A stretch of DNA of 64,000 nt. Source: an uncultured Pelagibacteraceae bacterium. GTDB lineage: Bacteria; Pseudomonadota; Alphaproteobacteria; Pelagibacterales; Pelagibacteraceae. Below the pieces are notes generated by a model that was not told where the DNA came from, ran no database searches, and worked only from the letters and a program-made list of their open reading frames with translations. Every line of letters begins with the position of its first letter. Positions within the stretch are counted from its first letter, which is position 1. The stretch covers positions 61,059 through 125,058 of the forward strand of contig CACHTQ010000001.1 of NCBI GenBank assembly GCA_902582845.1, given 5' to 3'. Made by a program: the position numbers and the translations under genes. Below, one piece after another: positions 49,923-53,043 of this stretch.

Positions 49923-50008
49923 TGGTGCCCTCGGCCAGACTCGAACTGGCACTCCGCAAGCGGCAAGGATTTTAAGTCCTTTGTGTCTACCAATTTCACC
50001 ACGAGGGC
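49923..50008 (-). tRNA. tRNA-Leu (TAA)
   Basis: GCCCTCGTGGTGAAATTGGTAGACACAAAGGACTTAAAATCCTT...GTTCGAGTC...GAGGGCACCA, 86 nt with variable arm. Confidence 0.97.
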
Positions 50009-50080
50009 ATGAGTTATTTTCATGAGTGTTTATGCTAATATTTATAATTGAACAAGATGAATAAGTAAATTTTTTTTATT
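49970..50080. repeat. Direct repeat copy 1 (tRNA-Leu 5' half from anticodon loop plus upstream promoter region)
   Basis: Aligns ungapped to 52933-53043: first 41 bp identical, 8 mismatches in the remaining 70 bp. Confidence 0.95.
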
Positions 50081-50081
50081 T

Positions 50082-50132
50082 TATCTCTTTATGCTCTGGT
50101 CTTGCTCTGGTTATCCTATAAAATCCTACAAA
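50082..50132. repeat. att-arm-like motifs, left inner end
   Basis: TGCTCTGGT twice (11-bp period) then ATCCTA(T/C)AAA twice; counterparts at 52777-52807 (direct) and 52868-52881 (inverted). Confidence 0.7.
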
Positions 50133-50139
50133 AAATTTA

Positions 50140-50526
50140 TTAATTATATATTTGTCTTTTTTTTTTTCTTTTTCTTGTAGCTCTTTTTAGTGAATCTGGA
50201 CCAAATCTATTTTTACCTTTTGTACCCTCTGGTATTAAAAAGAATAAAAGAACTAATCCACCAATGAATGGAATAAAGCTTATTAATAAAAAAAACCCCG
50301 ATCTATTTGTGTCATGCAATCTTCTTACACCAACAGAAATTGCAGGAATTAATGTAAATAAAGTTATTCCAAGAAAAAAATAACCAATTTCATTTTCTAT
50401 AATTGTAGAAATAAAATATGAGGGTGAAACGATTAATTGAAACCACCAATATTCTGATCTACTAGCTCTACCTTGAAAGACAAAATACTTTTTTAAACAT
50501 GTAGATACAGACTCACTAAAAGTCAT
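50140..50526 (-). CDS. DUF805 (YhaH-like) inner membrane protein
   Basis: KKYFVFQGRASRSEYWWF, VRRLHDTNRSG, IPFIG, GKNRFGPD. Confidence 0.92.
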   Translation of the reverse strand: MTFSESVSTCLKKYFVFQGRASRSEYWWFQLIVSPSYFISTIIENEIGYFFLGITLFTLIPAISVGVRRLHDTNRSGFFLLISFIPFIGGLVLLFFLIPEGTKGKNRFGPDSLKRATRKRKKKRQIYN

Positions 50527-50529
50527 CTT

Positions 50530-52059
50530 TTACCTTACCATTGCCCAACTCAAAGCGTCAATTGTATTTTCAGGTACATTGCTAACACTTATAATAATTA
50601 TAATTAAAACAAACATTAAATAAGAAAAAATCCCATATCTTTTACTATATTCATCAATTTTTGAATTTAAGAGTCTTTGTTTGGAATTTAATCCTAGCTG
50701 ATAACTAATTATAGCTAAAATATTTGGAGCAGCTGCATATAAATAGGATAATAAAATAATCCAATCCATTATAGTTAGATAGTTTAGTTTTGGTATTTCA
50801 TTATCAATAACAAAATTATATGCTATTAAAGATAATAGACACACAATCGTAATAGTCAATTTTGACTCAACTTCCTTTCTATTTAGCCAAACAGATGACC
50901 AACAAATAAATAATATTAAGATTATTGGTAATATTATTTTGAAAATATAATAAAAATACTCTCTTTCAATATGAATCTCATACTCCAGCTTTGAAAATAT
51001 AACATCCCTTAAAATTAAATTAGAATTGTTCAATTTTATATTTTTAAGATCCCATCCTGGAATAGAAATTTTATTTTTTGAATAATCAATCAATCTATAT
51101 GCAGAGTCATTATAGTCTAAAATTGATTCTTCAATATCTTCACCAATAATTGAAATTTTAATTATCTGTTTATCAAATGGAAAAGATGACAAATTAAAAT
51201 CATTTTTAATCTCCCAAGTGCCGACAGAATTTCCAGTAAATTTTATCAGTTTATCTTCACCATCTTTATGAGGGGAAATATCAACAAGCTCCTCAGTTAA
51301 ATTTTTATTTTCCTCAATTAAATTTTCAAATCCTATAATTTCTATCGGATTTGGAATTCTATTTTCTTTTGAATAATCATAGTTTAAACCTATACATGGT
51401 GTCCCCGCGTATGTGCCATCATCTTGAAGTGGCATTATCGTTTTTTTTGCTAAATCTATGATTTGTGGATAGGTAGACTCATAATAGGATAGATCACTAC
51501 CTATATATGCAGAAAAAGTTACAGAGGAATTGATTACATCAATTTCTTTAATACTCTCTAATGAGAAATCTACTCCATACCACGCTATTTCATATTTTTG
51601 AGGTTTAATTTTAAATTTAATTTCTTTATTGTCACGTAACAAAATAATCTGACTTTCTTTATTAATATCTGGAAAATAAACAATATCAAAAATTTCTTTA
51701 TCACTCATTTTACTCAGATCGACATCATCTACTGAAATCAAAATATCACCCTTTCTAAACAAATCGTAAGATTTATATGTCCATACATTTGCAATAACTG
51801 GATAATTATTACTTCTTCGAATTTTTGATGTTAAATCTTCTGAATATAAGCTTATATCCTTATCTGGAGGGTCCATATTAAATGAAAAGCCGAAATCCTT
51901 AAAGATATCAAGAGGTGTTTGCACACTAAGCTTATCAAATTTCAAATTTTTATATTGATCTACAAAATCATAGCATTGAAAAGGTATAGAAGCATTAATT
52001 CTAACAATTGATAATAAAATAAGGATAACACAATAAATAAAAAAATTTATGATTTTCAT
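50530..52059 (-). CDS. Pentameric ligand-gated ion channel (GLIC/ELIC superfamily) with N-terminal PDZ-like domain
   Basis: Signal peptide; PDZ-like KGDILISVDD...ILLRDNKEI; Pro-loop FNLSSFPFDKQ; IPGW; IER-YYIFKIILP (M1); M2 ESKLTITIVCLLSLIAYNF; IPKLNYLTIMD; M3 and M4. Confidence 0.88.
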   Translation of the reverse strand: MKIINFFIYCVILILLSIVRINASIPFQCYDFVDQYKNLKFDKLSVQTPLDIFKDFGFSFNMDPPDKDISLYSEDLTSKIRRSNNYPVIANVWTYKSYDLFRKGDILISVDDVDLSKMSDKEIFDIVYFPDINKESQIILLRDNKEIKFKIKPQKYEIAWYGVDFSLESIKEIDVINSSVTFSAYIGSDLSYYESTYPQIIDLAKKTIMPLQDDGTYAGTPCIGLNYDYSKENRIPNPIEIIGFENLIEENKNLTEELVDISPHKDGEDKLIKFTGNSVGTWEIKNDFNLSSFPFDKQIIKISIIGEDIEESILDYNDSAYRLIDYSKNKISIPGWDLKNIKLNNSNLILRDVIFSKLEYEIHIEREYFYYIFKIILPIILILFICWSSVWLNRKEVESKLTITIVCLLSLIAYNFVIDNEIPKLNYLTIMDWIILLSYLYAAAPNILAIISYQLGLNSKQRLLNSKIDEYSKRYGIFSYLMFVLIIIIISVSNVPENTIDALSWAMVR

Positions 52060-52757
52060 ATCTTTTTAATTTCATTTTCTTTTTTTTTTAATTTTTGTTT
52101 CTTCTTAAGCTCGCTATGTAAGTAAAAAGAAACAATAACTAAAATTCCAATAATTATCATTGGATTTGGCCATACTAAGAAATTATAAAAACCATGAAAT
52201 AAGTATGGTAAGGCTAGTGATAATATTAAAAATTTTTTATTGCCTGTAAAAGCATACATCCCAAAATAATAACCCATAACCGCACCATTTAGGCCGTGCA
52301 TAGGTATAGCTGAATAAGATCTTCCCAATGCTATTAAATATGACAACTCAGCATAATCAACATTCTCTTCTTTTGCTATTACTTCTGCCCATTCATATAC
52401 ATAAGTATAATTTTCATATGTCGCAAAACCTAATGAAACAACAACTCCATAAACTAAGCCGTCCATAGGTTCGTTAAATTCATTTCTTTTCAAAACTATT
52501 AAATACAGAATTGAAAATTTTAATAATTCTTCTGCCCATGCAGGACCTAAAAAACTACTAGTAAGATTTTCTGAATATTTTGATCCGTCATAAAAAAAAT
52601 CATGACTTAAACCATTTAAAATTCCCGCGGGTAAACATATTAAAAACCCAAGAAAAAAAATTAATACTATTGTTCCTTTAGGTTCCTTAAACCTATCTGA
52701 TAATGTAAAATATAGTAATAAAACTATTGGTGGAATAAAGGTTAATAAAATTGTCAT
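52056..52757 (-). CDS. PrsW-family intramembrane protease
   Basis: DRFKEP, AEELLKF, GFATYEN, AIPMH, LFHGFYN; multiple TM helices. Confidence 0.92.
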   Translation of the reverse strand: MTILLTFIPPIVLLLYFTLSDRFKEPKGTIVLIFFLGFLICLPAGILNGLSHDFFYDGSKYSENLTSSFLGPAWAEELLKFSILYLIVLKRNEFNEPMDGLVYGVVVSLGFATYENYTYVYEWAEVIAKEENVDYAELSYLIALGRSYSAIPMHGLNGAVMGYYFGMYAFTGNKKFLILSLALPYLFHGFYNFLVWPNPMIIIGILVIVSFYLHSELKKKQKLKKKENEIKKI

Positions 52758-52776: not shown

Positions 52777-52910
52777 TATCTCTCCATGCTCTTGTCTTGC
52801 TCTTGTTTGAGCAAATTAATTGAGCTTTATTTTCTAATCGTAATTGAAAGCTAAATTAAAATTATATGATTTTATAGGATATTTAGACTACCTTGGACTA
52901 ATATGAACTA
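52777..52910. repeat. att-arm-like motifs, right inner end
   Basis: TGCTCTTGT twice (52787-52806); GATTTTATAGGATA (52868-52881, inverted copy of 50112-50125); AGACTA/GGACTA/GAACTA at 10-bp period (52885-52910). Confidence 0.65.
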
Positions 52911-52932: not shown

Positions 52933-53043
52933 TTTTAAGTCCTTTGTGTCTACCAATTTCACCACGAGGGCATAAATGAATTTCATGAGTATTTATTATA
53001 ATATTTATAATTGAACAAGCTGAATAAGTAAATTTTTTTTATT
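52933..53043. repeat. Direct repeat copy 2: displaced tRNA-Leu 5' fragment (52933-52971) plus promoter region
   Basis: ttttaagtcctttgtgtctaccaatttcaccacgagggcat identical to 49970-50010; no variable arm, T arm or 3' acceptor strand. Confidence 0.95.

What the first reader, a model, noticed from the sequence alone, without database searches (positions are those of the whole stretch)
50140..52757. Mobile three-gene membrane module: PrsW protease + PDZ-fused pentameric ligand-gated ion channel + DUF805
Seen: three co-oriented membrane-protein genes are tightly coupled (ATGA overlap prsW/channel; 3-nt gap channel/DUF805) and are the only cargo of a tRNA-Leu islet. Established: PrsW is a site-1 intramembrane protease in envelope-stress signalling, PDZ domains bind peptide C-termini, and bacterial pLGICs mostly have no known physiological role. 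Inference: a proteolysis-gated channel circuit, in which the protease creates a peptide or new C-terminus (from DUF805, or from a host or phage protein) that the PDZ reads to open the pore. It could act in envelope-stress signalling or in abortive anti-phage depolarisation. I know no described system with this combination, and no ECF sigma/anti-sigma pair is present to explain PrsW conventionally.
Basis: partly seen in the sequence, partly recalled or inferred. Interest (0 to 1): 0.85.

Follow-up and report, generated by a model that had tools for sequence, protein, structure and literature searches.

The report
PrsW protease paired with PDZ-capped channel
A small mobile cassette in a SAR11-type ocean bacterium carries a membrane protease gene overlapping a gene for a neurotransmitter-receptor-type ion channel capped by a peptide-binding PDZ domain; this pairing recurs across SAR11 and I found no paper describing it, so it may be an unstudied protease-controlled channel.

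Summary
Observation confirmed. Three co-oriented minus-strand genes are present: PrsW (52757-52056), a 509-aa PDZ-capped pentameric ligand-gated channel (52059-50530) and DUF805 (50526-50140). They have an ATGA overlap and a 3-nt gap. They are the only genes between 111-nt direct repeats of the tRNA-Leu 5' half.

The conserved unit is the PrsW + PDZ-channel pair, not the trio. PrsW lies within three genes upstream on the same strand in 40 of 43 loci (directly adjacent in 32), in several genomic contexts, with channel identity down to about 30%. DUF805 is a facultative accessory (8 of 43).

- A phage-186-CII-like regulator joins the module in 30 of 43 loci, but was not found in this genome.
- PDZ-channels without PrsW sit beside exported trypsin-like and caspase-like peptidases.
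- PrsW also heads cassettes that have no channel.

PrsW catalytic residues, the PDZ carboxylate-binding loop and the pore helix are all invariant. The assembled genome has no ECF sigma or anti-sigma.

No paper was found on this pairing. This scan has met the same module before on other DNA. Verdict: new variant of a known kind, interest 0.7.

The parts
52056..52757 (-). PrsW-family glutamic-type intramembrane protease, 233 aa
   Evidence: PF13367 115 bits against a cut-off of 23.5. E76 E77 K80, F111 A112 E115, H154 and H188 are invariant in 36 homologues. It scores below the NCBIfam equivalog cut-off (113.9 against 225).
50530..52059 (-). PDZ-capped pentameric ligand-gated ion channel homologue, 509 aa (signal peptide, PDZ, beta-sandwich ECD, four TM helices)
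   Evidence: NF033918 3e-27. AF2 pLDDT 83.6. Foldseek GLIC 5e-18. Profile against PDB: ELIC, GLIC and DeCLIC at about 5e-22.
51604..51912 (-). PDZ domain of the channel (about residues 50-152), with a DFGF carboxylate-binding-type loop (G57 invariant, F58 in at least 90%)
   Evidence: Profile A2 against PDB PDZ domains: Aquifex RseP-homologue PDZ 9.4e-13, also PSD-95 and DegP. Foldseek DegS/HtrA/CtpA. Conservation.
50962..51600 (-). Extracellular beta-sandwich domain (about residues 154-366) with an invariant FPFD Pro-loop (293-296)
   Evidence: Secondary structure; invariant columns; alignment to ELIC FPFDRQ.
50578..50958 (-). Transmembrane domain M1-M4 (about residues 368-494). In M2, 18 of the 22 residues 398-419 are invariant and two more are at least 90% conserved, with an acidic ring at E398.
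50140..50526 (-). DUF805 small membrane protein, 128 aa; a facultative accessory of the module
   Evidence: PF05656 E 1.6e-26; phrog_12855 1e-25. Present in 8 of 43 loci. A copy lies beside PrsW or the channel in 9 other genomes of the order sample.
49923..50008 (-). Intact tRNA-Leu(taa), anchor of the islet
   Evidence: ARAGORN.
49970..50080 (.). Left copy of the 111-nt direct repeat (5' 39 nt of tRNA-Leu plus 72 nt upstream)
   Evidence: the repeat finder D1; sequence read.
52933..53043 (.). Right copy of the 111-nt direct repeat (partial tRNA-Leu plus upstream-like sequence), 93% identical
   Evidence: the repeat finder D1; sequence read.
50082..50112 (.). Inner 31-nt direct repeat, left copy; function unknown
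   Evidence: the repeat finder D3, 87% identity with 52777-52807.
52777..52807 (.). Inner 31-nt direct repeat, right copy, just upstream of the PrsW start
   Evidence: the repeat finder D3.

Best explanation
What it is (high confidence): a 2.96-kb tRNA-Leu-linked cassette in a SAR11-type genome. Its functional core is a translationally coupled pair. One gene encodes a catalytically intact PrsW-family membrane protease. The other encodes a GLIC/ELIC-like, probably cation-selective, pentameric ligand-gated channel whose extracellular domain is capped by a bacterial-type PDZ domain. DUF805 is an optional third membrane component. In most other genomes a phage-186-CII-like regulator is part of the module.

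How it most likely works (inferred, not shown): proteolysis at the outer face of the inner membrane controls the channel. PrsW cuts a membrane or periplasmic protein, which could be a co-encoded accessory such as DUF805, the channel precursor itself, or a host protein. This creates or exposes a peptide C-terminus. The PDZ crown binds that C-terminus through its conserved carboxylate-binding loop, as the PDZ of DegS does. Binding is passed to the gate of the pore and cations flow, giving an ion signal or depolarisation.

Shown here: gene identities, conserved linkage, intact catalytic, PDZ-loop and pore residues, and lack of a sigma/anti-sigma partner. Inferred: the substrate, the order of events, ion selectivity and physiological role.
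For: Linkage: PrsW is within three genes upstream on the same strand in 40 of 43 loci and directly adjacent in 32. In all 32 the spacing is overlapping or at most 3 nt. This holds in different contexts: the tRNA-Leu islet, the tRNA-Val/tRNA-Met islet and others. It also holds in one SAR86 SAG and in unclassified alphaproteobacterial SAGs, and once in the reversed order channel-then-PrsW. PrsW and channel distances co-vary (Mantel r 0.56, 0 of 2000 permutations).

Functional residues are conserved: PrsW EExxK, FAxxE, H and H; PDZ G57/F58; the Pro-loop FPFD; and the M2 helix.

The PDZ is of the peptide-sensing bacterial type, matching DegS, HtrA, CtpA and RseP PDZ domains.

The protease theme recurs independently. 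PDZ-channels that lack an adjacent PrsW sit next to an exported trypsin-like peptidase and an exported caspase-like peptidase in 5 species.

The conventional PrsW role is unavailable in this genome: only two sigma-70-family genes and no zf-HC2 anti-sigma were found in the assembly.
Against: There is no direct evidence of cleavage, binding or gating. PrsW also heads cassettes without any channel: pairs of bitopic coiled-coil membrane proteins, DUF805 alone, or nothing. So PrsW is not dedicated to the channel. A few PDZ-channels have no protease nearby (L010/L011, L051). No conserved substrate gene exists across all loci. The PDZ sits on top of the extracellular domain, far from a membrane-embedded active site, so a membrane-tethered stub may not reach it. 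Many of the loci are kin, so the counts overstate independence. This genome is 76.5% complete.
Confidence: 0.4

Rival explanations
1. Sensor-protease-regulator cascade. The PDZ-channel is the periplasmic sensor and PrsW is the transducer. The output is the stability or activity of the CII/CP76-like transcriptional activator, in the way membrane proteases FtsH and RseP control phage 186 CII.
For: A CII-like gene (PF06892 26-27 bits, phrog_101) is present in 30 of 43 loci, usually overlapping the PrsW start by 1 nt. It also pairs divergently with PDZ-channels lacking PrsW and closes PrsW cassettes lacking channels. 186 CII is degraded by FtsH and RseP (PMC7708051 abstract).
Against: This window's genome has no CII-like gene in its assembled 76.5%, and about 10 other loci lack it. 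The protein is soluble, with no membrane anchor. It could simply be the transcription factor of the operon or of a neighbouring mobile element.
Confidence: 0.2
2. PrsW is a maturation or quality-control protease for whatever membrane proteins are co-encoded in its cassette. The channel gates on some other ligand, and the PDZ has a structural or assembly role.
For: PrsW is the first gene of cassettes with unrelated membrane cargo: paired 255-309-aa bitopic proteins, DUF805, DUF2167 neighbours.
Against: This does not explain why PDZ-channels without PrsW have other exported proteases beside them. It also does not explain why the PDZ carboxylate-binding loop is invariant.
Confidence: 0.15
3. Anti-phage abortive-infection module. 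A phage cue activates the protease, the channel opens and the cell depolarises.
For: The module lies in tRNA-linked variable islets. It is present in only about 10% of SAR11 genomes sampled. DUF805 matches a phage 'moron' family. Neighbours in some loci include CII-like, PDDEXK and SNF2 genes. The protease-plus-pore logic resembles bacterial gasdermin systems (from memory).
Against: The three proteins have no PADLOC match. Neighbour hits are generic at the domain level only. No integrase or known defence system is adjacent in the window. SAR11 flexible islands mostly carry transport and envelope genes (PMC11796062).
Confidence: 0.12
4. The genes are functionally independent and merely travel together in cassettes.
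For: Each gene family also occurs alone in SAR11.
Against: Start/stop overlap or spacing of at most 3 nt in all 32 directly adjacent pairs. The pairing is kept across contexts and down to about 30% identity, and the distances co-vary.
Confidence: 0.05

Closest known systems
DeCLIC (Desulfofustis pLGIC with an N-terminal domain; PDB 9ftg and others)
   Same: Prokaryotic pentameric ligand-gated channel with an extra periplasmic N-terminal domain thought to modulate gating. It matches the family profile at 5e-20 over the ECD/TMD.
   Different: The DeCLIC NTD is not a PDZ. Its modulator is calcium (PMC9897478), and no partner protease is described for it. Here the cap is a single PDZ with a conserved peptide-binding loop.
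ELIC and GLIC (canonical bacterial pLGICs)
   Same: Best sequence and fold matches for residues about 280-455. Shared features are the Pro-loop, four TM helices, and an M2 helix with an acidic ring at its cytoplasmic end, as in cation-selective members.
   Different: They have no N-terminal domain and no conserved protease neighbour. Identity is only about 20%.
DegS / RseP envelope-stress cascade (E. coli sigma-E)
   Same: A periplasmic PDZ reads peptide C-termini and allosterically switches the attached module. Site-1 cleavage creates a C-terminus relevant to a PDZ-bearing downstream component. The NTD's best structural and sequence matches are DegS and RseP-homologue PDZ domains.
   Different: Here the PDZ is fused to an ion channel, not a protease, and no sigma/anti-sigma pair exists in the assembly.
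B. subtilis PrsW-RsiW-sigmaW
   Same: Same protease family, with all catalytic motifs.
   Different: Below the NCBIfam equivalog cut-off. No RsiW-type anti-sigma or ECF sigma was found. The conserved neighbour is a channel.
SAR11 flexible genomic islands with partial tRNA repeats (Microbiome 2025, PMC11796062)
   Same: [quoted passage not shown]
   Different: That paper does not mention PrsW or ion channels (0 occurrences).

Membership tests
Pentameric ligand-gated ion channel (Pro-loop/Cys-loop superfamily) | Beta-sandwich extracellular domain followed by four transmembrane helices | tested here: met
   AF2 model pLDDT 83.6, with strands at 154-366 and helices at 368-494. Foldseek GLIC/GABA-A at 5e-18, probability 1.00.
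Pentameric ligand-gated ion channel (Pro-loop/Cys-loop superfamily) | Pro-loop motif (aromatic-P-x-D) between beta6 and beta7 | tested here: met
   F293 P294 F295 D296 are invariant in 52 sequences and align to ELIC FPFDRQ.
Pentameric ligand-gated ion channel (Pro-loop/Cys-loop superfamily) | Conserved pore-lining M2 helix with a mid-pore hydrophobic residue and a charged ring at the cytoplasmic end | tested here: met
   In M2, 18 of the 22 residues 398-419 are invariant and two more are at least 90% conserved, and the helix aligns to ELIC M2. The assignment of E398 as the selectivity ring and L409 as 9' is by inference.
Pentameric ligand-gated ion channel (Pro-loop/Cys-loop superfamily) | Pentameric assembly and ligand-gated conductance | not testable with these tools
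This needs biochemistry or electrophysiology.
PDZ domain | PDZ fold (beta strands plus two helices) | tested here: met
   NTD model pLDDT 88. Foldseek DegS, HtrA, CtpA and DegQ PDZ regions, probability 1.00. Profile against PDB PDZ domains at 9.4e-13.
PDZ domain | Carboxylate-binding loop (x-hydrophobic-G-hydrophobic) | tested here: met
   D55 F56 G57 F58; G57 is invariant and F58 is in at least 90% of 52 sequences.
PDZ domain | Binding of a peptide C-terminus | not testable with these tools
   Needs peptide arrays or ITC.
PrsW family (PF13367, glutamic-type intramembrane protease) | Family profile match above the curated cut-off | tested here: met
   115 bits against 23.5.
PrsW family (PF13367, glutamic-type intramembrane protease) | Catalytic motifs EExxK, FxxxE and two His motifs | tested here: met
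   E76 E77 K80, F111 A112 E115, H154 and H188 are invariant.
B. subtilis PrsW equivalog (site-1 protease of the sigmaW pathway) | NCBIfam equivalog score, and a cognate RsiW-type anti-sigma with an ECF sigma | tested here: not met
   NF033739 113.9 bits against a cut-off of 225. Only two sigma-70-family genes (615 and 302 aa) and no zf-HC2 were found in G000, which is 76.5% complete.
DUF805 | Family profile match above the cut-off | tested here: met
   93.4 bits against 25.7.
SAR11 tRNA-linked flexible cassette | [quoted passage not shown] | tested here: met
   111-nt repeat, 93% identical, including 39 nt of tRNA-Leu. The criterion is taken from PMC11796062.
Known anti-phage defence systems (PADLOC 2.0) | Match of any module protein to a defence-system model | tested here: not met
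   No hits for PrsW, the channel, DUF805 or the CII-like protein.

The most novel reading that the evidence does not exclude
The PrsW protease, the PDZ-capped Cys-loop-type channel and (where present) the CII-like activator form a self-contained signalling device of a kind not yet described. In it, regulated proteolysis at the membrane gates an ion channel through a PDZ 'reader', or the channel controls the protease and through it a labile transcription factor. This would give SAR11, which has very few classical signalling systems, a modular and horizontally exchangeable sensor. It would also give bacterial pLGICs a first physiological context.
Probability: 0.25. Interest if true: 0.9.

Novelty: new variant of a known kind. 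Interest (0 to 1): 0.7.

Why it matters
Bacterial relatives of neurotransmitter receptors are heavily used structural models, yet their natural ligands and roles are largely unknown. This family has more than 760 homologues. It occurs in roughly a tenth of sampled SAR11 genomes. It has a recognisable ligand-reading domain (PDZ) and a conserved enzymatic partner (PrsW, or exported Ser/Cys peptidases). That turns 'what gates a bacterial pLGIC' into a testable question. Two cultured strains carry the module (HIMB4 and HIMB1456). It would also extend PrsW biology beyond anti-sigma cleavage, and it would add a functional class to the cargo of SAR11 tRNA-linked flexible cassettes.

Tried and rejected
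No result, and no inference is drawn from it.
- Tested whether B107, the small membrane protein found in 22 loci, is a divergent DUF805. hhalign gave probability 0.3%, so this was rejected.
- PADLOC on the three proteins and on neighbours gave nothing specific.
- Phage origin: no relative in IMG/VR by pattern plus tblastn and none in INPHARED phages by tblastn.
- Fused or longer forms (892 aa and above): none found. This is weak evidence, and a PrsW-channel fusion of about 740 aa would not have been visible in the listed top 120.
- Wider distribution: in 400 evenly drawn genomes of the phylum, 21 had pLGIC-like matches. None covered the PDZ region, and none had a PrsW (by my SAR11-derived HMM) within 1.5 kb.
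- CII-like gene in the window's own genome: not found with Pfam or with a local HMM.
- The channel's own periplasmic C-tail as the PDZ ligand: the tail is conserved (a S-W-M/A motif) but ends in K or R in 40 of 52 sequences, which is atypical for PDZ ligands. Left open and unsupported.
- The promoter/terminator scan of the islet was no better than shuffles.
Full report
**Observation.** Reading the junctions directly confirms the ATGA stop/start overlap between the first two genes and a 3-nt (AAG) spacer before the third. tRNA-Leu(taa) is at 49923-50008 on the same strand. A 111-nt direct repeat (49970-50080 and 52933-53043, 93% identical) consists of the first 39 nt of the tRNA plus 72 nt of upstream sequence, and it brackets only these three genes. 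A second, inner 31-nt repeat (50082-50112 and 52777-52807, 87%) sits just inside. I did not explain it.

**Identities.**
- Gene 1 is a PrsW-family protease (PF13367, 115 bits against a cut-off of 23.5). It is far below the NCBIfam equivalog threshold for B. subtilis PrsW (113.9 against 225). Its catalytic signature (E76 E77 K80; F111 A112 E115; H154; H188) is invariant in 36 aligned homologues.
- Gene 3 is DUF805. It also matches a phage 'moron' membrane-protein PHROG.
- Gene 2 matches the bacterial ligand-gated channel subfamily NF033918 (3e-27). An AlphaFold2 model built on 52 homologues (pLDDT 83.6, pTM 0.75) shows a signal peptide, an N-terminal alpha/beta domain, a beta-sandwich and four long helices. 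Foldseek places it with GLIC and GABA-A receptors (5e-18). The family profile finds ELIC, GLIC and DeCLIC in the PDB at about 5e-22. The Pro-loop FPFD (293-296) is invariant, as are 18 of the 22 M2 residues 398-419. The acidic residue at the cytoplasmic end of M2 fits a cation-selective pore, but this is an inference.
- The N-terminal domain is only a marginal PDZ hit for the single sequence (E 0.042). A profile of residues 24-165 from 52 homologues hits solved PDZ domains at 9.4e-13, with an Aquifex RseP-homologue PDZ best, then PSD-95 and DegP. A separate model (pLDDT 88) matches the PDZ parts of DegS, HtrA, CtpA and DegQ. The loop D-F-G-F (G57 invariant, F58 in at least 90%) occupies the position of the carboxylate-binding GLGF loop. 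C29 and C222 are also invariant, which suggests a disulfide tying the N-terminal helix to the extracellular domain. I could not inspect coordinates to check this.

**Linkage.** A scan of one genome per species (GTDB) returned 42 loci. Nearly all come from Pelagibacteraceae single-cell genomes. The rest are HIMB4, HIMB1456, one SAR86 SAG and several unclassified alphaproteobacterial SAGs.
- Counting the window plus these 42 loci, PrsW lies within three genes upstream on the same strand in 40 of 43 and is directly adjacent in 32. In all 32 the spacing is overlapping or at most 3 nt. Two of the three exceptions are cut by contig ends.
- The pairing holds across channel identities down to about 30% and in different settings: the tRNA-Leu site, a site between tRNA-Val(gac) and tRNA-Met(cat), and others. 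In one genome the order is reversed.
- Four independent look-ups of metagenome/SAG contigs gave the same picture.
- PrsW and channel pairwise distances co-vary (Mantel r 0.56, 0 of 2000 permutations). Since kin share history, this shows co-inheritance and nothing more.
- DUF805 is in only 8 of 43 loci. Even so, in a 300-genome sample of the order, a DUF805 copy lies beside a PrsW or channel gene in 9 genomes other than this one, sometimes beside PrsW with no channel present. It is therefore a recurrent but optional accessory.

1. A 153-168-aa cytoplasmic protein of the phage 186 CII (CP76) family (PF06892, 26-27 bits, just above the cut-off; phrog_101) is present in 30 of 43 loci. It either overlaps the PrsW start by 1 nt, forming a three-gene operon, or sits convergently at the far end of the cassette. 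It was not found in the window's own genome, which is 76.5% complete.
2. In the order sample, 34 other genomes carry PrsW, 29 carry a pLGIC match and 16 carry both. I fetched the PrsW loci of the 18 genomes that gave no channel match. In the 15 with enough flanking sequence to judge, PrsW is followed by other cargo: pairs of 255-309-aa bitopic coiled-coil membrane proteins, DUF805, or nothing. Several of these cassettes are again closed by the CII-like gene. The other three lie at contig ends, where a channel could have been cut off.
3. PDZ-type channels that lack an adjacent PrsW are, in five species, divergently paired with the CII-like gene. They are followed by an exported trypsin-like peptidase (PF13365, 2.7e-28) and an exported caspase-like peptidase (PF00656, 2.2e-19). 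Four of these five share flanking genes, so they represent at most two independent contexts.
4. Nine loci add a flavin amine oxidase and a second, canonical pLGIC of about 400 aa.

**Interpretation.** PDZ-capped channels keep company with proteases of unrelated classes that act in or at the periplasm. This argues that proteolysis is functionally tied to the channel. PrsW also serves other membrane cargo, which argues that it acts on co-encoded partners rather than on one universal host substrate. The conventional PrsW job is not available here. The assembly has only two sigma-70-family genes, of RpoD and RpoH size, and no zf-HC2 anti-sigma, although an M50 site-2 protease exists.

The closest mechanistic precedent is the E. 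coli sigma-E pathway, which I cite from established knowledge. There the DegS PDZ is switched by peptide C-termini, and site-1 cleavage produces the C-terminus relevant to the PDZ-bearing RseP. The substrate and the order of events are unknown.

The main rival (0.2) reverses the flow: channel as sensor, PrsW as transducer, CII-like activator as output. This is motivated by the reported degradation of 186 CII by FtsH and RseP (PMC7708051). A housekeeping maturation role for PrsW (0.15), an abortive-infection role (0.12) and mere hitch-hiking (0.05) follow. Nothing specific supports defence. The module proteins have no PADLOC match, neighbours give only generic domain hits, and no relatives appear in the phage collections.

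**Comparison with known systems and novelty.** NTD-bearing prokaryotic pLGICs are a known kind. DeCLIC is described as the only one with a solved structure, and such NTDs are called 'of unclear structure and function' (PMC9897478; bioRxiv 10.1101/2025.02.24.640012). Full-text searches gave no relevant paper. PrsW with 'pentameric ligand-gated ion channel' returned none, PrsW with 'ligand-gated' returned one unrelated paper, and a four-term search for pLGIC, prokaryotic, N-terminal domain and PDZ returned only two pharmacology guides. The DeCLIC papers retrieved contain no mention of PDZ.

The islet architecture itself is a described feature of SAR11 flexible islands (PMC11796062). In 400 evenly drawn genomes of the phylum, no PDZ-type match and no PrsW-adjacent pLGIC was found. 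As sampled, the module is therefore a SAR11-centred invention. This scan has already met the same pairing on other DNA (notes e1-1174998 and e1-2209904). My results agree with those notes and add the CII-like partner, the alternative proteases and the channel-less PrsW cassettes. I class it as a new variant of a known kind, interest 0.7.

**Limits.** ORF starts in my locus analysis are the longest-ORF choice, so the exact overlaps are approximate. Many loci are related. Several genomes are incomplete SAGs.

Noticed in passing
L019:7905-10429 (also L021, L022, L028-L030, L032, L033, L039): In nine loci a flavin amine oxidase of about 445 aa, with a possible TAT signal, is immediately followed by a second, canonical pLGIC of about 400 aa (PF02931 + PF02932). 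From memory, ELIC is gated by primary amines, so this could be an amine-sensing channel paired with an amine-removing enzyme.
   Followed up: partly
L103-L107 (e.g. L104:5597-10326): PDZ-type pLGICs without an adjacent PrsW are divergently paired with a CII/CP76-like gene, followed by an exported trypsin-like (PF13365) peptidase and an exported caspase-like (PF00656) peptidase. The block is conserved in five species.
   Followed up: partly
L085:4562-6102, L088:5121-6910, L091:7452-9114, L099:4428-6214: PrsW-led cassettes without a channel carry tandem paralogous 255-309-aa proteins, each with an N-terminal and a C-terminal TM helix and a long coiled-coil-like middle. They have no Pfam match.
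   Followed up: partly
L042:4520-7407; also L028, L033, L008: A second hot spot: the module (B107-PrsW-channel, with or without CII-like, oxidase or second channel) exactly fills the space between tRNA-Val(gac) and tRNA-Met(cat). In L098 the same site holds PrsW alone.
   Followed up: partly
window 50082-50112 and 52777-52807; 50112-50131 and 52862-52881: Inside the tRNA repeats there is a 31-nt direct repeat (87%) and a 20-nt inverted repeat (90%) at the two cassette ends. Their function is unknown. No integrase gene lies in the islet.
   Followed up: no
L008:1008-1346 and 21 other loci: A small membrane protein of about 107 aa ('B107', no Pfam family) recurs upstream of the module. In L039 it sits directly beside a second PrsW copy. 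It is a candidate partner or substrate and is unrelated to DUF805 by hhalign.
   Followed up: partly
L015:6536-11112 (same in L020): Next to one PrsW-channel pair lies a convergent cluster of M48 peptidase, TerB-domain protein, HSP70-like ATPase and a 235-aa protein. It resembles Ter-type stress/conflict clusters. PADLOC gave only a weak capP-like hit.
   Followed up: partly
I did not examine them beyond Pfam on the adjacent permease and NadK.
   Followed up: no
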